A stretch of 24,552 nt of DNA. Origin: a virus. A program made the translations under genes and the position numbers. This document shows positions 2,121 through 24,335 of this stretch, piece after piece (the stretch's first letter is position 1; every line of letters begins with the position of its first letter). Below the pieces are notes generated by a model. It saw nothing but the letters and a program-made list of their open reading frames with translations, did not search any database and was not told where the DNA came from. The stretch lies in UHGV virus genome UHGV-1720524; one strand, given 5' to 3'.

Positions 2121-2918
2121 TTATAGCTCCTTTAATCGAGGCGGTTCTGGTAGAGGCATCCAGTGGGTTACACCGCCAATTGGCTCATCGTCGTCGTACT
2201 CCAATGCGGCTATATAGAACCCGTCACGACGAGAATAAGAAATCCCGGACATTACAATGCCATCCGAAACAACAATAATGTCACCCGTTTCTTTCGGCAT
2301 TCGCTCACTACAGCTTATCCAACCATCCGGAGTCACCGGAAGCGAGAACGGCAGCACATCTCTGTGAACAAGTTTTTGCTGTGACAGGTTATCCAGAACT
2401 TTCTGTACTGCTGCATCACCGAATACACCAAGCGCATCTGCCATAACTCCTACAACCTGATAAGCCTCAGCGCATACCGTGGATAAACCATCCGGAATTA
2501 CCGGAGAGTTGCCGGGTTCTTTAATGTGCAAGCGAGGCTCACCATCTTTTGGTTCAGGCCACTGGCGCTCCATGTTGATCTTCAATTTATCTTCCATAGC
2601 AGCGGTAATTTCAGCATCGCTGATGCCAGCACGGCGCTGTGCATCCCACAACAGGAAATGCATATCAGCCCACTCGCTGAGATCGTCTGGTTCGGCTGCG
2701 GCTTCCAGAGCCTCTTTTGAGAGGTGTTTCAGTGGACCAATGGGGCCAACGCAGCCAAATGTGGAGTCAGACCATTTGGCATGCTCGTGGCGAATCAGTT
2801 CGCGTTCCAGTGATGCCAGTGCAATTCGTGCCAGTTCCATTTGTTCGCCACGAGTAAGCCCGTTTTCAAGCGGATTTTTAATGAACAATTCAATACGTTC
2901 TTTGGTAATAGTGGTCAT
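2121..2918 (-). CDS. DUF551-family prophage protein (265 aa)
   Basis: C-terminal DGWISCSERMPKE...THWMPLPEPP resembles DUF551; shares the NSPVIPDG motif and N-terminal pattern with the ORF at 12912-13718. Confidence 0.5.
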   Translation of the reverse strand: MTTITKERIELFIKNPLENGLTRGEQMELARIALASLERELIRHEHAKWSDSTFGCVGPIGPLKHLSKEALEAAAEPDDLSEWADMHFLLWDAQRRAGISDAEITAAMEDKLKINMERQWPEPKDGEPRLHIKEPGNSPVIPDGLSTVCAEAYQVVGVMADALGVFGDAAVQKVLDNLSQQKLVHRDVLPFSLPVTPDGWISCSERMPKETGDIIVVSDGIVMSGISYSRRDGFYIAALEYDDDEPIGGVTHWMPLPEPPRLKEL

Positions 2919-2928
2919 TTGTTAGTCC

Positions 2929-3684
2929 TTAAACTGCTAGTTGCAATTGCATTTCAAAGCGGTCGCGTTGTTCACAATACGCAAGAGAACCAGGGCTATT
3001 GTGTGCCTCAATCCGTTCTACCATTAATGCTGCGCGTGTCTCTTTACTTGCAGGTGCATAAGCCCCAGACCAGGCTTTATCAATACCGATGTTTCGAGCG
3101 ACGTTCGTACTATCTGCGCTGGCTAAGGGTAATTTTGTGAATATCAGCGGATTTAACATGCGCAATCCATGTAGTTTCGTAACCGGCTGACCATGCCCAT
3201 CAACAATGTGACGAATCAGGTCTTTCATTCTGGCTACCGCAAGAGTTGGGCGCTTTACGTCATAGTCGCCACAACTACCGATAGCCACTCGCGGAAACTC
3301 ATTGCACAAATGAATAAATCGCGCGTCACTTTCATTCATGTGCCACACTGGAACGCCAGCTAGTTTTCCGTGAGGCCACTCATTCAGAAGCGCATCATTT
3401 TCCTCCTCTCCGCCATCAATAATATCCGGGATAATGGCAAAATCGAATCCTGGGTGATTCTTCCAGCGAGCAACAAACTCGTAGTAATCGCTCCAGTCGA
3501 TTTTGTTTTTGCCAGCTGCTTTCCAGGCGGTGAATGCACCGTTGTCCAGCGCGAACGACTGACAGTATTCAGCCGCGAGATTGATCTGGCCTGAATGCGC
3601 AAAACTGATAAACGCATGTCGCCCTTTCCATGCTCTCATTGCGCACGTATCAGGAGTAATAGGCCCACCGTGGTAGTGAATCAT
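2929..3684 (-). CDS. Candidate TGT-fold / DpdA-like DNA transglycosylase (about 251 aa from the Met at 3684)
   Basis: Motifs spaced like those of tRNA-guanine transglycosylase: FALDNGAFTAW (cf. LTDSGGFQ), RVAIGSCGD (cf. YAVGGLAVGE), KLHGLRMLNP (cf. RYLMGVGKPED), LASADSTNVA (cf. GIDMFDCV). Start placed at MIHYHGG because of the GGAGAG Shine-Dalgarno and stop/start coupling with the upstream gene. Assignment is tentative. Confidence 0.4.
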   Translation of the reverse strand: MIHYHGGPITPDTCAMRAWKGRHAFISFAHSGQINLAAEYCQSFALDNGAFTAWKAAGKNKIDWSDYYEFVARWKNHPGFDFAIIPDIIDGGEEENDALLNEWPHGKLAGVPVWHMNESDARFIHLCNEFPRVAIGSCGDYDVKRPTLAVARMKDLIRHIVDGHGQPVTKLHGLRMLNPLIFTKLPLASADSTNVARNIGIDKAWSGAYAPASKETRAALMVERIEAHNSPGSLAYCEQRDRFEMQLQLAV

Positions 3685-3685
3685 C

Positions 3686-4093
3686 TCACTCTCCTTTGAT
3701 GCGAATGCCAGTAGCGCGGATTGCATCGATGACTTCAGAAACTTTGTATGCCATTACCGTTTGGTAATCATCGTGAAAATCTGTTCGATGAAGCATGCTG
3801 CTACGTTCCGGGAGCAGTATTTCCCGCGCTTCCAGTTCTGCAATGCGCTTTTTTGCTGCTTCCAGTTCATCCAGTAATTCCAGCACGGTAGCCGGATTAG
3901 CCTTGGCAACAAAATCCCGGACTGGCTTACAATCAATCTCCGCAATGGGTTGATACGATGTGTAGCCATGCTGTCTTGTATAACTACCGTGACGAATAAC
4001 GAAAAAATCACCATTTATTTTTTTAGCCTGCCACTTATCTTCACCGGCTTTCTCTGCCGCTTCACGCAGTGCCTGAGAGTTAATTTCGCTCAC
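3686..4093 (-). CDS. Ea22-like protein (135 aa)
   Basis: Contains ANPATVLELLDELEAAKKRIAELE, a motif shared with the ORF at 12502-12915 and with lambda Ea22-type proteins as recalled. Confidence 0.55.
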   Translation of the reverse strand: MSEINSQALREAAEKAGEDKWQAKKINGDFFVIRHGSYTRQHGYTSYQPIAEIDCKPVRDFVAKANPATVLELLDELEAAKKRIAELEAREILLPERSSMLHRTDFHDDYQTVMAYKVSEVIDAIRATGIRIKGE

Positions 4094-4311
4094 TTCGAAC
4101 CTCTCTGTTTACTGATAAGCTCCAGATCCTCCTGGCAACTTGCACAAGTCCGACAACCCTGAACGACCAGGCGTCTTCGTTCATCTATCGGATCGCCACA
4201 CTCACAACAATGAGTGGCAGATACAGTCTGGTAGTTCAGACGACACATTTTTATTGCTGTGTTGCGCTGTAATTCTTCAATTTCTGATGCTGAATCAATG
4301 ATGTCTGCCAT
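4090..4311 (-). CDS. TraR/DksA-type C4 zinc-finger protein (73 aa)
   Basis: CCECGDPIDERRR...CRTCASCQ: four-Cys motif with the spacing typical of phage TraR/DksA-family proteins; 4-nt overlap with the upstream gene. Confidence 0.6.
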   Translation of the reverse strand: MADIIDSASEIEELQRNTAIKMCRLNYQTVSATHCCECGDPIDERRRLVVQGCRTCASCQEDLELISKQRGSK

Positions 4312-4409
4312 CTTCCATTAATCCCTGAATTGTTGGTTAATACGCTTGAGGGTGAATGCGAATAATAAAAAAGGAGCCTGTAGCTCCCTGATGATTTTGC
4401 TTTTCATGT

Positions 4410-4625
4410 TCATCGTTCCTTAAAGACGCCGTTTAACATGCCGATTGCCAGGCTTAAATGAGTCGGTGTGAATCCCATCAGCGTTACCGTTTCGCGGTGC
4501 TTCTTCAGTACGCTACGGCAAATGTCATCGACGTTTTTATCCGGAAACTGCTGTCTGGCTTTTTTGATTTCAGAATTAGCCTGACGGGCAATGCTGCGAA
4601 GGGCGTTTTCCTGCTGAGGTGTCAT
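4410..4625 (-). CDS. Hypothetical protein (71 aa from MTPQQENALRS; track start at 4691 is an alternative)
   Basis: ORF in the early-left operon; ATGA overlap with an upstream mini-ORF suggests the 4625 start. Confidence 0.4.
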   Translation of the reverse strand: MTPQQENALRSIARQANSEIKKARQQFPDKNVDDICRSVLKKHRETVTLMGFTPTHLSLAIGMLNGVFKER

Positions 4626-11093: not shown

Positions 11094-11791
11094 AAAACAT
11101 CGCCGCACAGATGGTTAACTTTGACCGTGAGCAGATGCGCCGGATCGCCAACAATATGCTGGAACAGTACGACGAAAAGCCGCAGGTACAGCAGGTAGCG
11201 CAGATCATCAACGGTGTGTTCAGCCAGTTACTGGCAACTTTCCCTGCGAGCCTGGCTAACCGGGATCAGAACGAACTGAACGAAATCCGCCGCCAGTGGG
11301 TTCTGGCTTTCCGGGAAAACGGGATCACCACAATGGAACAGGTTAACGCAGGAATGCGCGTAGCCCGTCGGCAGAATCGACCATTCCTGCCATCACCCGG
11401 GCAGTTTGTTGCATGGTGCCGGGAAGAAGCATCCGTTATCGCCGGACTGCCAAACGTCAGCGAGCTGGTTGATATGGTTTACGAGTATTGCCGGAAGCGA
11501 GGCCTGTATCCGGATGCGGAGTCTTATCCGTGGAAATCAAACGCGCACTACTGGCTGGTTACCAACCTGTATCAGAACATGCGGGCCAATGCGTTGACTG
11601 ACGCGGAATTACGGCGCAAGGCTGCCGATGAACTGTCCTGTATGACCGCACGAATTAACCGTGGTGAGGCTATACCTGAACCAGTAAAACAACTTCCTGT
11701 CATGGGCGGTAGACCACTTAACCGGGCTCAGGCTCTGGCGAAGATCGCAGAAATCAAAGCTAAGTTCGGACTGAAAGGAGCCAGTGTATGA
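11090..11791 (+). CDS. P: Replication protein P (DnaB helicase loader), 233 aa
   Basis: MKNIAAQMVNFDREQMRRIANNMLEQYDEKPQVQQVAQIINGVFSQLLATFP... matches lambda P almost residue for residue from memory. Confidence 0.95.
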   Translation: MKNIAAQMVNFDREQMRRIANNMLEQYDEKPQVQQVAQIINGVFSQLLATFPASLANRDQNELNEIRRQWVLAFRENGITTMEQVNAGMRVARRQNRPFLPSPGQFVAWCREEASVIAGLPNVSELVDMVYEYCRKRGLYPDAESYPWKSNAHYWLVTNLYQNMRANALTDAELRRKAADELSCMTARINRGEAIPEPVKQLPVMGGRPLNRAQALAKIAEIKAKFGLKGASV

Positions 11792-12081
11792 CAGGCAAAG
11801 AGGCAATTCTTCACTACCTGAAAACGCACCGGACTTTCTGCGCGCCGGATGTAGCTGCGGCAACAGGCGCAACAGTAACCAGCATAAATCAGGCTGCGGC
11901 TAAAATGGCGCGGGCAGGAATCTTGGTCATTGATGGTAAGGTCTGGCGAACGGTGTATTACAGATTCGCTACCAGGGAAGAACGGGAAGGAAAGGTGAGC
12001 ACTAACCTGATTTTTAAGGAGTGTCGCCAGAGTGCCGCGATGAAGCGGGTGTTGATGGTTTGGGGGAGGGTAGGGGTATGA
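11788..12081 (+). CDS. ren: Ren (97 aa)
   Basis: MTGKEAILHYLKTHRTFCAPDVAAATGATVTSINQAAAKMARAGILVIDGKVWRTVYYRFATREEREGKV... matches lambda Ren. Confidence 0.9.
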   Translation: MTGKEAILHYLKTHRTFCAPDVAAATGATVTSINQAAAKMARAGILVIDGKVWRTVYYRFATREEREGKVSTNLIFKECRQSAAMKRVLMVWGRVGV

Positions 12082-12278
12082 GCATGATGGATTTCGCAGA
12101 AACTAAAAAGGCTATCGACGCCATCACAACCGACTGGTCTATCCGAGGACCGTATCACGAAGACGACGGGAAATATTACGCCTTGCTTCGTGGAGAGTGG
12201 GTTGGTGGCGGGTATATCGGAAAACGGAAAGCCCTTGATGCCATTCTCGAAAAGTTAATCCAGGAGGCCGCCCAATGA
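12078..12278 (+). CDS. Hypothetical protein (66 aa from MSMMDFAETKK)
   Basis: ORF with ATGA overlap to the ren stop and a G-rich Shine-Dalgarno; the track ORF 12021-12278 is an N-terminally extended version. Confidence 0.5.
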   Translation: MSMMDFAETKKAIDAITTDWSIRGPYHEDDGKYYALLRGEWVGGGYIGKRKALDAILEKLIQEAAQ

Positions 12279-12505
12279 GCAACATCGACAAACCAATGAC
12301 AAACCGTGAACTGGTGGATGCCGCCATTGAATTGGCCGGAGAGTTTTATGCGATGCAGGGCTATTCGCATCGTCCTGGCTTCAAGTATTGGCAATCTCCG
12401 CACCCGCATGAGCGCCTGTGCTTTGAAATGGCTTGCGTGGCATTCGAAACCATTCGCGGCTCAGATGTAATGGACGCCGTATCTGAGTTGGAGGATGAAG
12501 AATGA
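12275..12505 (+). CDS. Hypothetical protein (76 aa), starts MSNIDK
   Basis: Translationally coupled ORF; first 19 nt (ATGAGCAACATCGACAAAC) identical to the start of the next gene. Confidence 0.5.
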   Translation: MSNIDKPMTNRELVDAAIELAGEFYAMQGYSHRPGFKYWQSPHPHERLCFEMACVAFETIRGSDVMDAVSELEDEE

Positions 12506-12915
12506 GCAACATCGACAAACGCGCATTACGTGAAATCGCTGAGGCAGCAGTTGGTGCGCATGAGCGCCTTAGTGTTATGCCGCCTGATGACATTTTCGAT
12601 ATCTCACTGGCAGAAGGAACTCAGCTTGATGCAGATATCACTGCCTTGAACGCGCTGAACTCCGCAGCCAACCCAGCCACAGTGCTGGCGCTGCTGGATG
12701 AGCTGGAAGCCAAAGACCAGAGGATTGCTGTGCTGACCGAATCGCTCAAGCAGACGGTTTCAGGATACAAATCCTGCCTGCGTACCGGACATGAGCGCAT
12801 TCTTGACCTTGGCGGTGACTGTGACGCGCCAGAAGTGATGATTGCAGGCAATCCTGACATTCAGCAGGCGCAGAAGCTGATCGCCGCCGCATCCGGTAAA
12901 GGAGAGGCATCATGA
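12502..12915 (+). CDS. Ea22-like protein (137 aa), paralog of 3686-4093
   Basis: Shares ANPATVLALLDELEAKDQRIA with the minus-strand Ea22-like ORF. Confidence 0.55.
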   Translation: MSNIDKRALREIAEAAVGAHERLSVMPPDDIFDISLAEGTQLDADITALNALNSAANPATVLALLDELEAKDQRIAVLTESLKQTVSGYKSCLRTGHERILDLGGDCDAPEVMIAGNPDIQQAQKLIAAASGKGEAS

Positions 12916-14710: not shown

Positions 14711-15166
14711 GTGAACCTCCCACAAGACGGCATCAAACTACATCGCGGCAACTTCACCGCTATCGGCCAGCAGATCCAGCCTTATCTGGAGGACGGAAAA
14801 TGCTTTCGCATGGTGCTTAAACCGTGGCGTGAGAAACGCAGTCTTTCCCAGAATGCACTCAGCCACATGTGGTACAGCGAAATCAGTGAATACCTCATCA
14901 GCAGGGGTAAAACGTTCGCCACTCCAGCTTGGGTAAAAGATGCTCTCAAACACACATATCTCGGTTATGAAACCAAAGACCTGGTTGATGTCGTAACCGG
15001 TGATATCACCACTATCCAGTCGTTACGCCATACCTCCGACCTTGATACCGGAGAGATGTATGTCTTCCTGTGTAAGGTTGAAGCCTGGGCGATGAATATT
15101 GGCTGCCACCTGACTATTCCGCAGAGCTGCGAGTTCCAGCTGCTGCGTGATAAGCAGGAGGCGTAA
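14711..15166 (+). CDS. ninB: NinB-family recombination protein (GTG start), 151 aa
   Basis: [21 protein letters not shown] resembles the NinB RSLDQN...W motif as recalled; position upstream of ninE/rusA/Q. Confidence 0.65.
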
Positions 15167-16772: not shown

Positions 16773-17855
16773 TTAGAACTGGTAAACCATACCTACAGCA
16801 ACGATATCATCGGTAGCAACGCCAGATGCTTTCGTGAAATCGCTCTTATCAATCAGGTTGATTTTGTAGTCAACAAAAGTGGACATATTTTTGTTGAAGT
16901 AATAGGTTGCACCTACATCAACATATTCAACCAGGTCCTGATCACCCCAAACACCCAAGTCTTTTCCTTTAGAATGCAGGTAAGCAACGGATGGACGCAG
17001 GCCGAAGTCGAACTGATATTGTGCAACAGCTTCGAAGTTTTGTGCTTTGTTGGCAATATGGTTATTACCAAAAACAGTCATGTTCTGGGTTTCAGAATAG
17101 GTGGTGGCCAGATAGATGTTGTTCGCATCATATTTCAGACCAGCTGCCCATACTTCAGCATTTTGACCAGAAGCATTCAGACCGTTGTTACCGTAGATAA
17201 CCTGATTATTAGTGCGATCAGATTTAGCATAGGTTGCACCCACGCCGAATCCTTCATACTCATAAGTAGTTGAGAAACCGAAACCATCGCCATTAGCTTC
17301 AGTTACTTCATTTCGGTCATTTTTGCCCTGATACTGAGCTGCAAAGTTCAGGCCATCAACCAGACCAAAGAAGTCGTTGTTACGATAAGTTGCAACACCT
17401 GTGGTGCGACCAGTCATGAATACATCTGTTTGGGTCCAGGTATCGCCACCGAATTCTGGCAGAACGTCAGTCCACGCACCGATGTCGTATGCTACACCGT
17501 AGTTACGGCCGTAATCGATTGAGCCGTAGTCACCGAATTTCAGGCCTGCAAATGCAAGACGGGTTTTGTCTTTGGAGGAACCTTGAGATTCAGCGCGGTT
17601 GCCTTTGAATTCATATTCCCACTGACCGAAACCAGTCAGTTGATCGTTGATTTGGGTTTCACCTTTGAAGCCAAGACGGGCATAAGTAGTATCACCATCA
17701 TCTGCATCATTAGAGGAGAAGTAGTGCTTAGCATTAACTTTCCCGTACAGATCCAGCTTGTTACTGTCTTTATTATAAATTTCAGCTGCCTGAGCAGACA
17801 TCGCCATCAGTACTGATGCAGCTACAGCAGAAATTGCCACTGTTAATTTTTTCAT
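16773..17855 (-). CDS. nmpC: Outer-membrane general porin (OmpC/OmpF family; phage-borne NmpC/Lc type), 360 aa, apparently intact
   Basis: Signal peptide [30 protein letters not shown]...LDLYGK start, and C-terminal ...VAVGMVYQF typical of enterobacterial porins; located between Q and the holin on the opposite strand as in DLP12/PA-2. Confidence 0.9.
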
Positions 17856-19601: not shown

Positions 19602-19738
19602 AATCTTAACTACAATATGATTCATTTTGATGATTGTTTCATAAGGAACAGTGAAGTAAGATCTAAGAGGAGTTAAATTTTATACAGTATAATCATAATA
19701 TTGCAGCAAGGTGGTTATAATTGAAAGAATATTTAGAT

Positions 19739-21196
19739 ATGAATACATCTCATGTAAGAGTTGTTACTCATATGTGTGGGTTCCTGGTTTGGCTCTATAG
19801 TCTTTCAATGTTGCCACCAATGGTTGTAGCATTGTTTTATAAAGAAAAAAGCCTGTTCGTTTTCTTTATAACTTTCGTTATATTTTTTTGCATTGGTGGC
19901 GGAGCGTGGTATACAACTAAGAAATCTGGCATTCAATTACGTACCCGTGATGGGTTTATTATAATTGTAATGTTTTGGATTTTGTTTTCTGTTATTAGTG
20001 CATTCCCTTTATGGATTGACTCAGAACTTAATTTAACGTTCATTGATGCTCTGTTTGAAGGGGTTTCTGGAATAACAACAACAGGAGCAACTGTAATTGA
20101 TGATGTTAGTTCATTACCTCGGGCATATTTGTACTATCGGTCACAGTTAAATTTTATAGGTGGTTTAGGAGTTATTGTTCTGGCGGTTGCTGTATTGCCA
20201 TTATTGGGTATTGGTGGTGCAAAGCTTTATCAGTCAGAAATGCCGGGGCCATTTAAGGATGACAAACTCACTCCCCGCCTGGCCGATACGTCACGGACAC
20301 TGTGGATAACTTATTCTTTATTAGGTATTGCTTGTATTGTCTGTTATAGACTTGCAGGAATGCCTTTGTTTGATGCTATTTGTCACGGGATTTCCACAGT
20401 TTCGCTTGGTGGTTTCTCAACTCATAGCGAGAGTATCGGATATTTTAATAACTATTTGGTTGAGCTGGTGGCTGGTTCTTTTTCCCTGCTATCGGCTTTC
20501 AACTTCACTCTTTGGTATATTGTTATTAGCAGGAAAACGATAAAACCTTTAATCAGAGATATTGAACTTCGTTTCTTTCTGTTAATAGCCTTAGGGGTGA
20601 TCATTGTTACCTCTTTCCAGGTCTGGCATATAGGTATGTATGACTTGCATGGAAGTTTTATTCATTCGTTTTTTCTTGCCAGCTCCATGCTCACTGATAA
20701 TGGTTTAGCTACGCAGGATTATGCAAGTTGGCCCACGCACACGATAGTGTTTTTGCTGTTGTCAAGTTTCTTTGGGGGATGTATAGGTTCAACTTGTGGT
20801 GGAATTAAGTCACTTCGATTTCTTATACTTTTCAAACAAAGCAAACACGAGATAAATCAGCTTTCTCATCCCAGAGCGTTGTTGAGTGTAAATGTAGGAG
20901 GGAAGATAGTTACAGATCGTGTAATGAGGTCTGTATGGAGTTTCTTTTTTCTTTATACTCTCTTCACGGTGTTTTTTATACTGGTGTTAAATGGTATGGG
21001 ATATGATTTTCTTACATCATTTGCAACAGTGGCTGCATGTATTAATAATATGGGATTAGGTTTTGGGGCTACTGCATCGTCATTCGGAGTGCTTAATGAC
21101 ATTGCAAAATGTTTAATGTGCATAGCTATGATTCTTGGTCGCCTTGAAATTTATCCTGTTATTATATTGTTTTCAGGTTTTTTTTGGCGCTCCTAA
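19739..21196 (+). CDS. trkG: TrkG/TrkH-family K+ uptake membrane protein (485 aa from MNTSHVRVV), AT-rich moron
   Basis: Polytopic membrane protein matching Rac-prophage TrkG as recalled; low GC; preceded by an AT-rich region with TATAAT-like boxes. The track ORF starts at an upstream TTG. Confidence 0.88.
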   Translation: MNTSHVRVVTHMCGFLVWLYSLSMLPPMVVALFYKEKSLFVFFITFVIFFCIGGGAWYTTKKSGIQLRTRDGFIIIVMFWILFSVISAFPLWIDSELNLTFIDALFEGVSGITTTGATVIDDVSSLPRAYLYYRSQLNFIGGLGVIVLAVAVLPLLGIGGAKLYQSEMPGPFKDDKLTPRLADTSRTLWITYSLLGIACIVCYRLAGMPLFDAICHGISTVSLGGFSTHSESIGYFNNYLVELVAGSFSLLSAFNFTLWYIVISRKTIKPLIRDIELRFFLLIALGVIIVTSFQVWHIGMYDLHGSFIHSFFLASSMLTDNGLATQDYASWPTHTIVFLLLSSFFGGCIGSTCGGIKSLRFLILFKQSKHEINQLSHPRALLSVNVGGKIVTDRVMRSVWSFFFLYTLFTVFFILVLNGMGYDFLTSFATVAACINNMGLGFGATASSFGVLNDIAKCLMCIAMILGRLEIYPVIILFSGFFWRS

Positions 21197-21282
21197 TATA
21201 TGGCTGATTTATAATTGTGAGTTTAATATTATGTTGACTCACTCATTGATCCAATACCTAACTTTACCAGCAACCCCTCCGT

Positions 21283-21315
21283 CCCCAGTAGCACTGGCTG
21301 CTGGGGTGCGTTTTA
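21283..21315 (+). terminator. Intrinsic terminator downstream of trkG
   Basis: CCCCAGTAGC-ACTG-GCTGCTGGGG (one mismatch) followed by TGCGTTTTATT. Confidence 0.5.
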
Positions 21316-21333: not shown

Positions 21334-22125
21334 ATGAGCGAGAAATTAAAGATAGTCTATCGCCCATTACAAGAATTGTCACCGTATGCGCACAACGCCA
21401 GGACGCACAGCCCTGAGCAGGTGGCACAACTGGTAGAAAGTATTAAGCAATTCGGCTGGACTAATCCGGTGCTGATTGACGAAAAGGGCGAAATTATTGC
21501 GGGTCACGGTCGTGTTATGGCGGCTGAAATGCTCAAAATGGATTCTGTTCCGGTCATTGTTCTGTCTGGCCTGACGGATGAGCAGAAAAAGGCGTACCGC
21601 CTGGCAGATAATCGCCTGCCGATGAATGCTGGCTGGGATGAAGATCTGTTGCGGATGGAGCTGTCGGACCTAATCAATGCTGATTTTGATGTCTCCCTGA
21701 CAGGCTTCATCCCGACAGAAATTGATGAACTGTTGACGGATGTTTTGCCCGGTACAGGAAATGAGGAGGAGCCGTATACGACGAAAATTGATACGCCTGT
21801 TTATGAGCCGTCGGGCGGTAAACCGGATATCAGTGAACTGTACGACGATACGAAAACTCAGGAGCTGATCAGCCGGATACGTTCGGCGTCCCTTGAGCCT
21901 GATATTGAGAAATTCCTCCTGTGTGCGGCAGAACGTCACACGGTGTTTAATTTCAGCAGAATTGCGGACTATTACGCTCACGCCCCCTCTGAAATTCAGT
22001 GTTTTTTCGAGGAGTCGGCGCTGGTGATCATTGATTATCAGCAGGCTATTGAAAATGGATTTGTCCGGATGACGCAGCGCATGGTGGAGATCATGCATGG
22101 TGGTGAGGAGGAGGAATATGCGTGA
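21334..22125 (+). CDS. ParB-like nuclease-domain protein (263 aa)
   Basis: N-terminal L.ELSPYAHNARTHS...PVLID.KGEIIAGHGRVMAA resembles the ParB/Srx N-terminal domain (GHxR motif); acidic C-terminal tail. Confidence 0.6.
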   Translation: MSEKLKIVYRPLQELSPYAHNARTHSPEQVAQLVESIKQFGWTNPVLIDEKGEIIAGHGRVMAAEMLKMDSVPVIVLSGLTDEQKKAYRLADNRLPMNAGWDEDLLRMELSDLINADFDVSLTGFIPTEIDELLTDVLPGTGNEEEPYTTKIDTPVYEPSGGKPDISELYDDTKTQELISRIRSASLEPDIEKFLLCAAERHTVFNFSRIADYYAHAPSEIQCFFEESALVIIDYQQAIENGFVRMTQRMVEIMHGGEEEEYA

Positions 22126-23050
22126 TGATTTTTGCGCCTTTATTCTGACTCACGGGCGACCGGACAAAGTTCTGACTTACCGGACGTTGCGTCGTGCTGG
22201 CTATACCGGGAAAATTTTTATCGTTGTTGATGATGAAGATAAGACACGGAATCAGTACATGGCTGAATTTGGTGAACAGGTGCTGGTGTTTTCCAAAGCC
22301 GATATCGCCAGTCGTTTTGACGAAGCCGATAATTTCTGTGACCGCCGCTCAATTTTTTACGCCCGTAATGCCTGTTTCGACCTGGCAAAACTGGTCGGGT
22401 GTAAATACTTCATTCAGCTCGATGATGATTATCACGAGTTCCAGTTTCGGGTGGATCGCAACTATGACCAGGCCTATTTTCCGATAAGGAAACTGGATGC
22501 GATCCTTTCTGAAATGCTGGCGTACTACGAATCAATACCTGCTCTTTCCATCGCTATGTCGCAGGGCGGGGATTTTCTTGGTGACAATGGCGGCCATGCT
22601 TCGTGGGTGAAACGCAAGGCAATGAACAGCTTTATCTGTTCGGTTGATCGACCGTTCTCATTCATGGGGCGCATTAACGAGGATGTGAATACGTACACGA
22701 ATCTCGGTCGCTGTGGTGAATTGTTTATGACGATCGGTGCTGTCCAGTTAGGGCAGAAACAGACGCAGAAAAACAGCGGCGGAATGACCGAGCTGTATCT
22801 GGATTCCGGAACCTACGTTAAAAGTTTTTACTCCGTCATGTATGCGCCGTCGTGCGTAAAAATCTCACTGATGGGTGCCAGCCATAAACGCATTCACCAT
22901 CAGGTCACCTGGAACAACGCTGCAGTAAAAATCCTTCACGAAAAATACAGGAAGAAGACACCCTGCATATCAATGGGGATGACAAATGATTCCGTATTCG
23001 AAAGTCGAGTCTCTGGCAGCGTGCCGGATGACTGCACAACAAATCGCTGA
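22118..23050 (+). CDS. Protein of unknown function with Rossmann-like N-terminus and DxD-type motif (FIQLDDDYHEF); possible GT-A-like transferase (310 aa from MRDDF)
   Basis: Beta-alpha-beta pattern FCAFILTHGRPDKVLTYRTLRRAGYTGKIFIVVDDED and later DDD motif; GAGGAGGAGG Shine-Dalgarno before the MRDDF start; overlaps the ParB-like stop by 8 nt. Family assignment is speculative. Confidence 0.45.
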   Translation: MRDDFCAFILTHGRPDKVLTYRTLRRAGYTGKIFIVVDDEDKTRNQYMAEFGEQVLVFSKADIASRFDEADNFCDRRSIFYARNACFDLAKLVGCKYFIQLDDDYHEFQFRVDRNYDQAYFPIRKLDAILSEMLAYYESIPALSIAMSQGGDFLGDNGGHASWVKRKAMNSFICSVDRPFSFMGRINEDVNTYTNLGRCGELFMTIGAVQLGQKQTQKNSGGMTELYLDSGTYVKSFYSVMYAPSCVKISLMGASHKRIHHQVTWNNAAVKILHEKYRKKTPCISMGMTNDSVFESRVSGSVPDDCTTNR

Positions 23051-23237
23051 CGTTCTGGATGTTGATCTGAACCGACTGAAAGAAAATCGGGAAGCAATGA
23101 CAGATTTTTATGCGGCCATCCGTAAGGGCAGAGCGAAAGGTGAAGCCGAGTTACGAGCGGCATTGTTTAAGCTTGCCAGAAAAGGGGATGCCTTTGCTCT
23201 GCGCGAACTACTCAGGGTGGATAAAAATCAGGACTAA
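22986..23237 (+). CDS. Small helical protein upstream of terminase (83 aa; alternative start MTAQQIADVL at 23027)
   Basis: ORF ending 4 nt before the TerS start; function not recognised. Confidence 0.4.
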   Translation: MIPYSKVESLAACRMTAQQIADVLDVDLNRLKENREAMTDFYAAIRKGRAKGEAELRAALFKLARKGDAFALRELLRVDKNQD

Positions 23238-23240
23238 CTG

Positions 23241-24335
23241 ATGAGCAGACCGGACTGGGGGGCGTTGCAGCAGGAGTATATTGCTGAATACACCCGCTCC
23301 GGTATATCTCCGGTGGCATGGTGTGAAGCAAGGGGACTGAATTACGCAACAGCCCGTCGTTACATCAAAAAAACTCCGAAAAATGCGCAGACAGAAATGT
23401 GCAAAACTGCGCAAAAAAGTGCGCAGAAAAAATCTGCGCAGACTGCACAAAAGCGGAACGAAAAATCTCAGGAAAAAAAGCCAGTATTCGATGCGGGCCT
23501 GAATGAGGGCGACGCGGAGGAATTTTCGTTCTGTCCCGATGAATTCGGCATTTCTGACCAGCAGGCTAAGTTTGCGATGCTTGTTGCTCAGGGTAAAAAG
23601 CCGACAGAGGCGTACCGACTAGCCGGTTATGAGGGGCAAGGTGCGACAGCTAACAGCAACGCCAGTCGTATGCTTAGAAATGCCAGGGTTTTTCGCGCTA
23701 TCAGCTACTTCCGCAATCAGTACCAGAAACGCTATACCGCAGACCTGGATTTACTAGTGAGTCAGTTGATGGCTATTGTCCTGGCCGACCCCAATCAGCT
23801 TGCACAATTTCGCCGTGTTAACTGCCGTTATTGCTGGGGCGAGAATCATCTCTACCAGTGGCGCGATATAGCAGAATTCGACAAGGCAGCGGCGCAGGCT
23901 TCCAGAGATGGCAAACCCGAACCGGAATATGGAGGCCTCGGCTTTGTTGATAACGCCATACCCAATCCGGACTGCCCGAAGTGCTGCGGTGAGGGAACGG
24001 GACAGCTTTATATGGCTGATACCACTCTGCTTGATGGGGATGCGCGGCAATTATATGCAGGGGCAAAATTCGGAAAATTCGGCGTTGAGATCCTGCTGGA
24101 GGATAAGGCTGCCGCCCGGCGTGAATTGTTGCGTTTGTTTTCTGCTGGCGGGGCTTTATGTGCAGATAAACGGCTACAGGAACTGGAAATTGAACGGCGC
24201 AGAATGGAAAACCAGAAGCTGCGCAAAGAGATCGAAACGGTGGAAGATAATGAACATCCCCAGCCTGTGGCGATCAATATTAATGTGGTTGATGCCAGAG
24301 TAAGGAGTGATGAAGATGATCTCTCCGACGCTTAA
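23241..24335 (+). CDS. Terminase small subunit (Terminase_2-like core with N-terminal extension), 364 aa
   Basis: FAMLVAQGKKPTEAYRLAGYEG...ANSNASRMLRNARVFRAISYF resembles the terminase small-subunit family signature; immediately precedes a Walker-A ORF. Confidence 0.7.
   Translation: MSRPDWGALQQEYIAEYTRSGISPVAWCEARGLNYATARRYIKKTPKNAQTEMCKTAQKSAQKKSAQTAQKRNEKSQEKKPVFDAGLNEGDAEEFSFCPDEFGISDQQAKFAMLVAQGKKPTEAYRLAGYEGQGATANSNASRMLRNARVFRAISYFRNQYQKRYTADLDLLVSQLMAIVLADPNQLAQFRRVNCRYCWGENHLYQWRDIAEFDKAAAQASRDGKPEPEYGGLGFVDNAIPNPDCPKCCGEGTGQLYMADTTLLDGDARQLYAGAKFGKFGVEILLEDKAAARRELLRLFSAGGALCADKRLQELEIERRRMENQKLRKEIETVEDNEHPQPVAININVVDARVRSDEDDLSDA

What the first reader, a model, noticed from the sequence alone, without database searches (positions are those of the whole stretch)
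21334..23050. ParB-like nuclease-domain protein paired with a DxD-motif Rossmann-like protein just upstream of terminase
Seen in sequence: a 263-aa protein with a ParB/Srx-type N-terminal domain (GHGR motif) overlaps by 8 nt a 310-aa protein that has a Rossmann-like N-terminus and a DDD (DxD-like) motif, placed between the trkG moron and the terminase genes. Established knowledge: ParB-like nuclease domains are recurrent partners of DNA-modification enzymes (DndB, DpdB, phage methyltransferase fusions). Inference: the pair could be a DNA-modification or anti-defence module expressed with the late genes. The GT-A-like call rests on short motifs only.
Basis: partly seen in the sequence, partly recalled or inferred. 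Interest (0 to 1): 0.5.

Follow-up and report, generated by a model that had tools for sequence, protein, structure and literature searches.

The report
ParB-like partner plus DNA-type glycosyltransferase cassette
A lambdoid E. coli prophage carries an intact, translationally coupled gene pair (a ParB-like nucleotide-binding adaptor and a TET-associated-type glycosyltransferase) that recurs just upstream of the packaging genes or inside replication gene clusters of very diverse bacterial and archaeal viruses; it most likely puts a sugar on phage DNA, yet no gene for the usual hydroxymethyl-base acceptor was found.

Summary
Window 21334-22125 encodes a 263-aa ParB/Srx-fold protein, the full-length form of K-12 'ynaK'. 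It overlaps by 8 nt the 310-aa ORF 22118-23050. That ORF is a clear member of Pfam PF20691 (TAGT, TET-associated glycosyltransferase; 121 bits). It has a predicted GT-A fold and the invariant motifs R14, D102-D103-D104 and E188-D189.

The pair is not a chance neighbourhood:
- The partner lies directly upstream of TAGT in all 78 testable loci from one-genome-per-species bacteria and archaea, in 80 of 80 viral contigs, and in isolated phages of Lactobacillus, Nocardia, Porphyromonas and Haloarcula.
- The overlap is 8 or 11 nt in 61 of 78 loci.
- The constant partner element is a new helical C-terminal domain. The ParB domain is missing in variants that sit between DNA polymerase, helicase and sliding-clamp genes.
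- Full-length pairs usually sit just upstream of terminase genes of several unrelated families.
- No TET/JBP or thymidylate-synthase-like gene accompanies the pair.

Best reading: a two-component DNA glycosylation module built like the ParB-dependent thymine dioxygenases, with an unknown acceptor. I rate it a new variant of a known kind, of moderately high interest.

The parts
21283..21306 (+). Terminator-like hairpin (CCCCAGTAGCACTGGCTGCTGGGG followed by a T-rich tail). It closes the trkG moron 28 nt before the ParB-like start codon.
   Evidence: Consensus scan and sequence. Reading it as a moron terminator that Q-antiterminated late transcription passes through is inference from lambdoid biology.
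21334..22125 (+). ParB-like partner protein, 263 aa, the full-length form of K-12 'ynaK'. It has a ParB/Srx NTP-binding-type N-domain (about aa 1-100), a helix-helix segment (103-134), a disordered linker (137-155) and a helical C-terminal domain.
   Evidence: Pfam ParB_N and phrog_620. The PDB profile search hits Noc and ParB at about 1e-5. The AF2 N-domain has pLDDT about 88, and Foldseek matches Noc, ParB and KorB. Residues 10-144 match the N-terminal module of a type II methyltransferase model at 2.2e-38. Conserved positions are N21, S36, G41, G57, R60, D92 and N93.
21766..22122 (+). C-terminal 'TAGT-partner' domain of the ParB-like protein (about aa 145-263). It has no Pfam or PDB relative by sequence. 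It is the only part of the partner that is always present next to TAGT.
   Evidence: Invariant columns Y148, K151, P155, Y157, E158, R201, H202, Q222, E226, D234 and G242. Partners made of this domain alone occur in L099, L113, L117, L121, L139, L154, L156, L159 and L009. No Pfam hit at E<=0.1 and no PDB sequence hit. It is predicted helical, with low to moderate confidence.
22105..22125 (+). Translational-coupling junction. The Shine-Dalgarno-like run GAGGAGGAGGA (22105-22115) lies inside the codons of the partner's acidic tail. The TAGT start ATG is at 22118-22120 and the partner's stop TGA at 22123-22125, giving the 8-nt overlap.
   Evidence: Sequence. The same overlap of 8 nt (27 loci) or 11 nt (34 loci) is seen in 61 of 78 diverse loci, and 71 of 78 overlap by 1-20 nt.
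22118..23050 (+). TAGT-family GT-A glycosyltransferase, 310 aa. R14, D102-D103-D104-Y105, N187-E188-D189 and R258/H260/H261 are invariant. The E. coli form has a tail of about 25 aa that is not conserved and overlaps the next ORF.
   Evidence: Pfam PF20691 at 8.4e-35 and phrog_842 at 2.3e-103. Alignments. AF2 pTM 0.75. Foldseek against PDB gives GT-A enzymes. Foldseek against BFVD gives TAGT-domain phage proteins down to 9.6e-27 and a T-even-type beta-glucosyl-HMC-alpha-glucosyltransferase at 1.2e-7.
22986..23237 (+). Small ORF (83 aa; PGAP aa from 23028) with terminase-small-subunit-like similarity. It belongs to the downstream packaging module, not to the pair.
   Evidence: phrog_309 at 8.3e-23. 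PGAP CDS in L001. An 82-aa ORF sits at the same place in Yersinia loci L005 and L006.
23241..24335 (+). Terminase small subunit. The start of the terminase large subunit follows from 24307. These are context genes for the pair.
   Evidence: Pfam Terminase_2 at 3.7e-8 and phrog_51 at 1.7e-75. In L090, at 99% identity, the next gene is Terminase_6N/6C.

Best explanation
The two genes form one functional unit, a two-component DNA glycosylation module expressed with the late genes.

The 310-aa protein is the catalyst. It is a metal-dependent GT-A glycosyltransferase of the TAGT family and would use a nucleotide-sugar donor.

The 263-aa protein is its dedicated adaptor or activator. Its novel C-terminal helical domain docks the cognate glycosyltransferase. 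Its ParB/Srx-fold N-domain, the same module found fused to phage DNA methyltransferases, binds an NTP and gives the enzyme access to bases in double-stranded DNA. This parallels the ParB-like proteins that ParB-dependent phage thymine dioxygenases need on dsDNA, and the way DpdB supports DpdA.

In small and temperate phages the pair is the last thing made before terminase, so replicated concatemers would be modified just before or during packaging. In larger phages with their own replisome, a partner lacking the ParB domain sits among polymerase, helicase and clamp genes, so the enzyme would presumably act at the fork.

The result would be glycosylated phage DNA that resists host nucleases.

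Shown here: family membership, fold, motifs, obligate pairing, translational coupling, the two genomic settings, and the absence of a hydroxymethylase partner. Inferred: physical interaction of the two proteins, NTP use, DNA as acceptor, which base is modified, and the anti-defence benefit.
For: - TAGT membership and catalytic motifs. The R...DDD...ED motif set is the one defined for DNA-modifying phage GT-A enzymes and for the trypanosome base-J glucosyltransferase (bioRxiv 10.1101/2023.12.21.572611).
- GT-A fold.
- Obligate pairing: the partner lies directly upstream on the same strand in 78 of 78 testable loci from one genome per species, spanning many phyla and an archaeon. The same holds in 80 of 80 IMG/VR loci and in isolates phi jlb1, c5, HHTV-2, NTR1 and Porphyromonas phage005b, the last at only 27% TAGT identity.
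- Conserved 8- or 11-nt overlap.
- L156 carries two tandem partner-TAGT pairs, which suggests each enzyme has its own cognate partner.
- The N-module is homologous to that of ParB-methyltransferase fusions: phrog_498 at 1.2e-50 and PADLOC MTase_II at 2.2e-38.
- The NBD + helix-helix + disordered linker + CTD architecture without an HTH domain matches that described for the experimentally validated 5mYOX-activating ParBs (PMC13229309). The conserved N21, S36, G41, R60 and N93 have the spacing of the CTP-contact residues listed there.
- DNA-centred neighbourhoods: terminase large subunits of at least four families lie within two genes downstream. Variants with the C-terminal domain alone are flanked by DNA polymerase A, primase-helicase, beta-clamp or helicase genes.
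- Identity of 41-47% between E. coli, Lactobacillus, Nocardia and Haloarcula virus proteins argues for an acceptor common to all cells, which DNA is.
- Occasional extras fit glycan building: tandem TAGT paralogues, a TAGT fused to a SAM methyltransferase, and sugar-nucleotide genes nearby.
Against: - No enzyme that makes the known acceptors (5-hydroxymethyl-C or -U, 5-hydroxy-C) was found. There is none in the window. None is among the two genes on either side in 75 loci. No such gene family recurs in the clustering of all neighbourhood ORFs. No TET_JBP or thymidylate-synthase hit appears within 8-10 kb in eight contexts with precomputed Pfam. None is annotated in the complete 38-kb and 32-kb genomes of phi jlb1 and c5.
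- To my knowledge, direct enzymatic glycosylation of canonical DNA bases has no precedent.
- A eukaryotic TAGT-domain protein, GREB1, is reported from my own knowledge to glycosylate a protein, so the family is not restricted to DNA.
- No partner-TAGT fusion protein was seen, and no complex could be modelled.
- The C-terminal domain model is of low confidence.
- In the 5mYOX system, mutating the NTP-contact residues did not abolish activation, so NTP use by such ParBs is uncertain.
Confidence: 0.55

Rival explanations
1. Protein glycosylation. The TAGT enzyme glycosylates a protein, for example its own partner (whose linker carries the invariant motif P-x-Y-E-P), a packaging protein or a virion protein. 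The ParB-like protein would then be substrate or scaffold rather than a DNA loader.
For: The partner has invariant Tyr and Lys residues (Y148, K151, Y157) in an otherwise disordered linker. The Foldseek list includes protein- and peptide-modifying GT-A enzymes: glycogenin, SunS/ThuS, GalNAc-T2 and collagen galactosyltransferase. The pair lies next to packaging and head genes. No DNA acceptor-making enzyme was found. From my own knowledge, GREB1's TAGT-like domain glycosylates a protein.
Against: Terminase, portal and capsid families differ completely between loci, while TAGT stays 45-60% identical. Only the co-conserved partner could therefore be a common protein acceptor. Variants with the C-terminal domain alone lie in replisome clusters far from structural genes. 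The N-module is the one fused to DNA methyltransferases. All Foldseek PDB matches are equally distant (E about 1e-4, TM about 0.4), so they indicate the fold and not the acceptor.
Confidence: 0.15
2. Packaging or partition accessory. The ParB-like protein works with terminase, for example in pac or cos recognition, DNA-end handling, or segregation of the phage genome. The glycosyltransferase would be a separately acting moron, for example changing a cell-surface glycan for superinfection exclusion.
For: The pair is immediately upstream of the small and large terminase subunits in most loci. It is the first two genes after cos in phage c5. It abuts the large terminase gene, with no annotated small subunit, in Nocardia phage NTR1. 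Prophage GT-A enzymes such as TarP modify wall polymers (cited).
Against: Recognisable small-subunit genes are present as well in many loci. A conserved 8- or 11-nt overlap and 100% co-occurrence are not expected of independent functions. The pair also occurs in replication modules away from terminase. The partner falls below the canonical ParB model cut-off (TIGR00180, 38.5 versus 58.45 bits), and no HTH DNA-binding domain was detected. No ParA-type family turned up among the neighbouring genes. A cell-surface acceptor cannot be common to Gram-negative and Gram-positive bacteria, CPR bacteria and haloarchaea.
Confidence: 0.1
3. The enzyme acts on modified DNA that comes from elsewhere. One option is a second-step glycosylation of bases installed by another system, such as a 7-deazaguanine put in by the DpdA-like gene of this same prophage. 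Another is hypermodification of the hydroxymethylated DNA of superinfecting phages, as a prophage defence.
For: The characterised T2/T6 family member adds a second sugar to an already glucosylated base (PMC13216743). The window encodes a DpdA-like transglycosylase at 2929-3726 (phrog_887, 5.8e-102). The anti-phage idea for prophage glycosyltransferases is raised in the literature.
Against: No queuine tRNA-ribosyltransferase is annotated in phi jlb1 or c5, and no first-step glucosyltransferase family is on record within 8-10 kb in the precomputed-Pfam contexts. The gene sits in the late operon behind a terminator, so expression in the lysogen is not expected. The pair also occurs in large phages with their own replication genes. 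The DpdA-like gene is 18 kb away in a different operon.
Confidence: 0.08

Closest known systems
ParB-dependent phage thymine dioxygenases (5mYOX176/ParB176; O'Toole et al., PNAS 2026, PMC13229309)
   Same: Both have a phage ParB-like protein made of nucleotide-binding domain, short helix-helix, disordered linker and C-terminal domain, with no DNA-binding HTH. In both it is encoded next to a post-replicative DNA-base-modifying enzyme, often near terminase. In the published system the ParB is needed specifically on dsDNA and is specific for its cognate enzyme. The window protein has the same architecture and conserved NTP-contact positions.
   Different: The enzyme partner here is a glycosyltransferase, not a dioxygenase, and no 5mYOX is present. 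The published ParB-dependent subclass is linked to kinases, amidotransferases and amino-acid:DNA transferases rather than glycosyltransferases. Homology of the C-terminal domains could not be tested because no sequences were available.
T2/T6 beta-glucosyl-HMC-alpha-glucosyltransferase and 5mYOX/ThyS-linked phage GT-A enzymes (Pfam PF20691, TAGT)
   Same: Same Pfam family, GT-A fold and R...DDD...ED motifs. These are phage enzymes that glycosylate DNA.
   Different: Those enzymes need 5-hydroxymethyl- or already glucosylated cytosine made by other phage genes, which are absent here. Similarity to the T-even type is distant (12% identity, E=1.2e-7, TM about 0.55). The obligate partner protein is not a described feature of them. 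'Solitary' TAGT homologues in 288 of 753 phage genomes were noted as unexplained in PMC13216743. About 65% of GT-A contigs lack a base-modifying neighbour.
Phage ParB-domain/DNA-methyltransferase fusion proteins (phrog_498; PADLOC MTase_II; ParB-CTPase-fold survey PMC12704722)
   Same: The N-terminal roughly 140 residues are clearly homologous (1.2e-50 and 2.2e-38). Such fusions are enriched in prophages, and the ParB fold of some methyltransferase fusions binds ATP.
   Different: Here the ParB module is joined to a non-catalytic helical domain, and the catalytic partner is a separate, translationally coupled glycosyltransferase.
DpdA/DpdB of the bacterial 7-deazaguanine DNA modification system
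   Same: A ParB-like NTPase (DpdB) supports a DNA-base-exchanging enzyme (DpdA). This rests on my own knowledge of the published system and was not tested here.
   Different: The catalytic chemistry and protein families are different. The window's own DpdA-like gene is unlinked to the pair.
K-12 Rac prophage genes ynaK and ydaY
   Same: K-12 ynaK is the same gene at the same place after trkG, at 99.7% DNA identity.
   Different: In K-12, homology stops at window position 21587. K-12 ynaK (87 aa) is therefore only the 5' remnant of the ParB-like gene. The glycosyltransferase is deleted, and ydaY is unrelated sequence.

Membership tests
Pfam PF20691 TAGT (TET-associated glycosyltransferase) | Score above the curated gathering threshold of the family model | tested here: met
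   121 bits against a cut-off of 27.5, E=8.4e-35, covering model positions 4-205 of 205.
Pfam PF20691 TAGT (TET-associated glycosyltransferase) | GT-A fold with the R...DDD...ED active-site motif set | tested here: met
   AF2 pTM 0.75. All top PDB matches are GT-A enzymes. R14, D102-104 and E188-D189 are invariant in 14- and 43-sequence alignments. The residue after ED is Val rather than Tyr or Phe.
Pfam PF20691 TAGT (TET-associated glycosyltransferase) | Genomic association with a TET/JBP dioxygenase or another source of hydroxymethyl-pyrimidine | tested here: not met
   None was found in the window, among neighbours in 75 diverse loci, in eight contexts annotated over 8-10 kb on each side, or in the annotation of two complete small phage genomes.
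Pfam PF20691 TAGT (TET-associated glycosyltransferase) | Transfer of a sugar to a base in DNA | not testable with these tools
   This needs nucleoside LC-MS or an in-vitro assay.
ParB/Srx fold (Pfam PF02195 ParB_N) | Domain model above threshold and matching fold | tested here: met
   28.9 bits against a cut-off of 26.3. The PDB profile search hits Noc and ParB at 1.4e-5. Foldseek matches Noc, ParB and KorB at 7.5e-7 to 9e-6, with rmsd 3.2-3.7 over about 140 residues.
ParB/Srx fold (Pfam PF02195 ParB_N) | Conserved NTP-contact residues (box I N/Q-x-R, S...G, box II GxxR, box III [DE]N) | tested here: inconclusive
   N21, S36, G41, G57, R60 and N93 are invariant and D92 nearly so. Their spacing matches the residues listed. 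R23 and H58 vary. Binding itself was not tested.
Canonical chromosome/plasmid partition ParB (TIGR00180) | Full-length model above cut-off, with an HTH DNA-binding domain and a ParA partner | tested here: not met
   TIGR00180 scores 38.5 bits against a cut-off of 58.45, over residues 11-94 only. No HTH domain was detected by Pfam or in the model. No ParA-type family turned up among the neighbours.
ParB-activated DNA-base-modifying enzyme pairs (5mYOX/ParB type) | ParB-like protein with NBD and CTD but no DNA-binding domain, encoded beside its cognate DNA-modifying enzyme | tested here: met
   Architecture. Adjacency and coupling. The enzyme class differs: a glycosyltransferase instead of a dioxygenase.
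ParB-activated DNA-base-modifying enzyme pairs (5mYOX/ParB type) | Enzyme activity on dsDNA depends on the ParB-like partner | not testable with these tools
   This needs co-expression or reconstitution with and without the partner.

The most novel reading that the evidence does not exclude
The ParB-like partner loads a TAGT glycosyltransferase onto ordinary double-stranded DNA, and the enzyme glycosylates a canonical base or another native DNA position directly, with no pre-installed hydroxymethyl or hydroxyl handle. This would be a so-far undescribed class of DNA modification. It would be made by a portable two-gene cassette present in thousands of temperate and virulent phages of bacteria and archaea, including common E. 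coli prophages.
Probability: 0.2. Interest if true: 0.9.

Novelty: new variant of a known kind. Interest (0 to 1): 0.6.

Why it matters
Phage DNA glycosylation is currently understood as decoration of hydroxymethylated or hydroxylated pyrimidines. Recent surveys explicitly set aside, or left unexplained, the large share of phage GT-A/TAGT genes that have no such partner.

This finding defines what most of those 'solitary' enzymes of this clade really travel with: a dedicated partner protein whose constant part is a new helical domain, usually fused to the ParB module that phages also fuse to DNA methyltransferases.

It extends the newly shown principle of ParB-like activators of DNA-base-modifying enzymes from dioxygenases to glycosyltransferases. 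It also poses a sharp question, what the acceptor is, that can be answered in E. coli with two genes and a mass spectrometer.

If DNA is modified, hundreds of sequenced E. coli strains (889 of 5426 complete genomes carry the full pair) harbour prophages whose virion DNA may resist restriction or sequencing chemistries in unrecognised ways.

Tried and rejected
1. A hidden TET/JBP or hydroxymethylase in the window. The unassigned ORFs of about 265 aa were checked. ORF 2929-3726 is DpdA-like, and 12912-13718 matches only PHROGs of unknown function. Rejected.
2. K-12 ydaY as the remnant of the glycosyltransferase. Rejected: homology to K-12 ends inside the ParB-like gene, at 21587.
3. The PGAP 'pseudogene, incomplete' label on ynaK in the identical strain. 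Rejected as an annotation artefact: the ORF is intact and matches the family profile end to end.
4. Rosetta-stone fusions of partner and TAGT. None among about 170 loci.
5. Sequence relatives of the C-terminal domain in Pfam or PDB. None. The AF2 model of that domain is too uncertain for a fold assignment.
6. AFDB Foldseek search, to test similarity to the base-J glucosyltransferase. The library was unavailable.
7. Iyer et al. 2013, which defined TAGT. The paper is not held in the library. [quoted passage not shown]
8. Sequences of the 5mYOX-associated ParBs for direct comparison. No supplementary files are held.
9. A defence-system reading. PADLOC gives no hit for TAGT, and only the methyltransferase N-module hit for the partner.
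10. PDB sequence relatives of TAGT. None.
Full report
**Setting.** The window is a lambdoid E. coli prophage read from integrase to the start of the terminase large subunit. The stretch holding the finding, 21334-23050, is 100% identical to the chromosome of E. coli QDFD216, where PGAP annotates the surrounding prophage as lambda-type: exo/bet/gam, CI-like repressor, O/P-like replication genes, a QuuD antiterminator, a porin moron, lysis genes, trkG, then the two genes of the finding and terminase. The full pair is present at 80% coverage or more in 889 of 5426 complete E. coli genomes, and in ten induced-prophage records.

**Observation.**
- ORF 21334-22125 encodes 263 aa.
- The ATG at 22118 opens a 310-aa ORF that ends at 23050.
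- The partner's stop (22123-22125) lies 8 nt beyond that ATG.
- GHGR is residues 57-60 of the first protein. DDD is residues 102-104 of the second.
- trkG lies upstream and is closed by a terminator-like hairpin at 21283-21306.
- A small ORF, the terminase small subunit and the start of the large subunit lie downstream.

**What the two proteins are.** The second protein is not merely 'DxD-like'. It scores 121 bits on Pfam PF20691 (TAGT, TET-associated glycosyltransferase) against a cut-off of 27.5, and 2.3e-103 on phrog_842. Its AlphaFold2 model has pTM 0.75 and pLDDT above 90 over most of the first 150 residues. The model matches only GT-A glycosyltransferases in the PDB, and TAGT-domain phage proteins in BFVD. 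Those include a T-even-type beta-glucosyl-HMC-alpha-glucosyltransferase at E=1.2e-7. Alignments from E. coli to a haloarchaeal virus keep R14, D102-D103-D104-Y105, N187-E188-D189 and R258/H260/H261 invariant. The first three are the R...DDD...ED motif set reported for DNA-modifying phage GT-A enzymes and the trypanosome base-J glucosyltransferase.

The first protein has a ParB/Srx-fold N-domain.
- It passes the Pfam ParB_N threshold.
- A PDB profile search hits Noc and ParB at about 1e-5.
- Foldseek matches Noc, ParB and KorB with rmsd 3.2-3.7 over about 140 residues.
- It falls below the canonical ParB model cut-off, and no HTH domain was detected.
- Residues 10-144 are strongly homologous to the N-terminal module of phage ParB-methyltransferase fusions (phrog_498 at 1.2e-50; PADLOC MTase_II at 2.2e-38).
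- After a short helix-helix segment and a disordered linker comes a conserved helical C-terminal domain of about 115 residues. It has no Pfam or PDB relative.

**The pair is one unit.** A scan of one genome per species returned 80 loci, from Enterobacteriaceae, Bacteroidota, Firmicutes, Verrucomicrobiota, Planctomycetota, Acidobacteriota, candidate-phyla bacteria and an archaeon. Their TAGT proteins are 45-99% identical to the E. coli protein.
- A profile of the partner finds it directly upstream on the same strand in 78 of these loci. In the other two the contig ends at the TAGT gene.
- All 80 IMG/VR loci have the partner.
- So do the isolates Lactobacillus phages phi jlb1 and c5, Haloarcula virus HHTV-2, Nocardia phage NTR1, and a Porphyromonas phage whose TAGT is only 27% identical.
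- The stop-start overlap is 8 nt in 27 loci and 11 nt in 34 loci. In 71 of 78 it is 1-20 nt.
- In the window, a GAGGAGGAGGA run for TAGT is written in the codons of the partner's acidic tail.
- The three loci with long gaps between partner and TAGT include two (L150, L164) with an extra TAGT paralogue in between. L156 has two complete partner-TAGT pairs in tandem.

**The constant partner element is the C-terminal domain.** In eight of the GTDB loci that are not cut by a contig end, and in the 191-kb Vibrio phage pv27, the upstream gene encodes only this domain. Where their flanks were examined, these variants sit in replication modules.
- DNA polymerase A lies upstream and a beta sliding clamp downstream in L117 and L121.
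- A clamp lies downstream in L156 and L159.
- Primase-helicase and SNF2/DEAD helicase flank the pair in L113.
- Primase and exonuclease genes lie upstream and a helicase gene lies immediately downstream in pv27.

Pairs with the ParB domain are instead usually followed by terminase. Among the two downstream genes of 75 loci, large subunits of the Terminase_6, Terminase_3, GpA and TerL_ATPase families, and several small-subunit families, dominate. In phage c5 the pair is the first two genes after cos. Upstream neighbours are heterogeneous. In enterobacteria the upstream slot is a moron site, holding trkG in E. coli and an enterotoxin-like pair in Yersinia.

**The missing acceptor pathway.** Characterised TAGT-family and other phage DNA glycosyltransferases act on 5-hydroxymethyl- or 5-hydroxy-pyrimidines made by phage enzymes. 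No such enzyme travels with this pair.
- There is no TET/JBP or thymidylate-synthase-like hit in the window.
- There is none among the flanking genes of 75 loci, and no such family recurs in the clustering of all neighbourhood ORFs.
- There is none within 8-10 kb in eight contexts with precomputed Pfam.
- None is annotated in the complete genomes of phi jlb1 (38 kb) and c5 (32 kb). In phi jlb1 every unassigned ORF outside the tail region is shorter than about 120 aa, and the 1.4-kb gap upstream of the pair holds no long ORF.
- C5- and N6/N4-methyltransferases occur nearby in a minority of loci.

**Mechanism.** The best-supported reading is a two-component DNA glycosylation module. The closest experimentally grounded analogue is the ParB-dependent subclass of phage thymine dioxygenases. 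There, a ParB-like protein with the same NBD, helix-helix, linker and CTD layout and no DNA-binding domain is required, with cognate specificity, for activity on dsDNA but not on ssDNA.

This gives a simple account of the two genomic settings seen here. With the phage's own replisome genes, the C-terminal domain alone suffices, and the enzyme may work at the fork. In phages that depend on the host replisome, the ParB module is added, and the pair is expressed just before packaging. That part is inference.

The conserved N21, S36, G41, R60 and N93 correspond in spacing to the CTP-contact residues of ParB. ParB folds can bind CTP, ATP or GTP. Nucleotide use here is untested.

High conservation across hosts as different as E. 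coli, Lactobacillus and Haloarcula argues for an acceptor common to all of them. DNA fits. Cell-envelope polymers do not, and the mutually unrelated packaging and head proteins do not either.

**Rivals.** The rivals I kept are:
- glycosylation of a protein, most plausibly the partner itself;
- a packaging-accessory role for the ParB-like protein with an independent glycosyltransferase;
- action on bases modified by another system.

Their weights, and the evidence for and against each, are given in the Rival explanations section.

**Comparison with what is known, and novelty.** The TAGT family, the idea that ParB proteins accompany DNA-modification enzymes, and the occurrence of GT-A genes near ParB and terminase genes are all in the literature. 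That literature treats TAGT or GT-A genes without a 5mYOX or ThyS neighbour as unexplained, or as less likely to modify DNA. It ties ParB dependence to dioxygenases.

In the searchable literature I found no description of the following:
- the obligate, translationally coupled partner-TAGT cassette;
- its new C-terminal domain as the core partner;
- its two genomic modes;
- its independence from any hydroxymethylase.

I therefore rate it a new variant of a known kind. The interest lies in the unknown acceptor and in how easily it can be tested in E. coli.

**Limits.**
- No experiment and no complex model was possible.
- The model of the C-terminal domain is weak.
- The neighbourhood Pfam summaries list only the 25 commonest families, so a rare TET/JBP neighbour cannot be excluded.
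- The founding TAGT paper could not be read.

Noticed in passing
window 2929-3726 (-) and 2121-2918 (-): A 265-aa ORF with no Pfam or PDB hit matches phrog_887 'queuine tRNA-ribosyltransferase' at 5.8e-102. It is therefore a DpdA-like DNA transglycosylase of the kind that inserts 7-deazaguanines into phage DNA. In other phages its relatives sit beside QueD and VUT-transporter genes. The next gene encodes a dATP/dGTP pyrophosphohydrolase (PF04447) fused to DUF551. The prophage may thus carry a second, unlinked DNA-modification function in its early-left operon.
   Followed up: partly
window 21334-21587; L174 (K-12 MG1655 Rac) 3878-4481; L001 20001-20258: K-12 ynaK (87 aa) is only the 5' remnant of the ParB-like gene, because homology to the window stops at 21587. 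K-12 ydaY is unrelated to the glycosyltransferase, which is deleted in K-12. PGAP labels the intact gene in the identical strain QDFD216 as an 'incomplete' ynaK pseudogene and leaves about 530 nt unannotated, although the ORF matches the family profile end to end.
   Followed up: yes
window 19721-21306; L005 2180-3332: The slot between the lysis genes and the pair is a moron site. In E. coli it holds trkG, with low G+C (0.38-0.40) and its own terminator-like hairpin. In Yersinia the same slot holds a heat-labile-enterotoxin-like A/B pair (Enterotoxin_a/Scabin-like plus LT-IIB), which is absent from a sister Yersinia locus.
   Followed up: no
window 16773-17855 (-): A 360-aa OmpC/NmpC-type porin gene lies on the opposite strand, between the Q-like antiterminator and the lysis cassette. 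It is another moron, in a region of low G+C.
   Followed up: no
L150 3581-5275 and 5163-6161; L156 4460-6906; L117 and L164: Some loci elaborate the cassette. L150 (Hyphomonadaceae) has a TAGT fused to a class-I SAM methyltransferase domain, followed by a second TAGT. L156 has two tandem pairs of C-terminal-domain partner plus TAGT. L117 and L164 have tandem TAGT paralogues. One locus has sugar-nucleotide genes nearby (epimerase, GDP-mannose dehydratase-like, nucleotidyl transferase). All of this is suggestive of multi-step glycan building.
   Followed up: partly
window 22097-22125: In the 14-sequence alignment that spans E. coli to a haloarchaeal virus, every partner protein ends in Ala. The tail before it is acidic in most of them. 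In the window these last codons double as the Shine-Dalgarno run and the first codons of TAGT (TAT GCG TGA read as ATG CGT GA), so part of this conservation may be imposed by the overlapping gene rather than by protein function.
   Followed up: partly
L170 (Lactobacillus phage phi jlb1) 11350-12746: A 1.4-kb stretch without any long ORF lies between the late activator gene and the ParB-like gene. Short reverse-strand ORFs there read like translated structured-RNA sequence. It was not examined for tRNA or other RNA genes.
   Followed up: no
window 14711-15166 (+): This ORF corresponds to the gene PGAP names 'DNA base-flipping protein YbcN' in the identical prophage. Pfam gives a weak NinB hit at 1.8e-4. 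It is unconnected to the pair by position.
   Followed up: no
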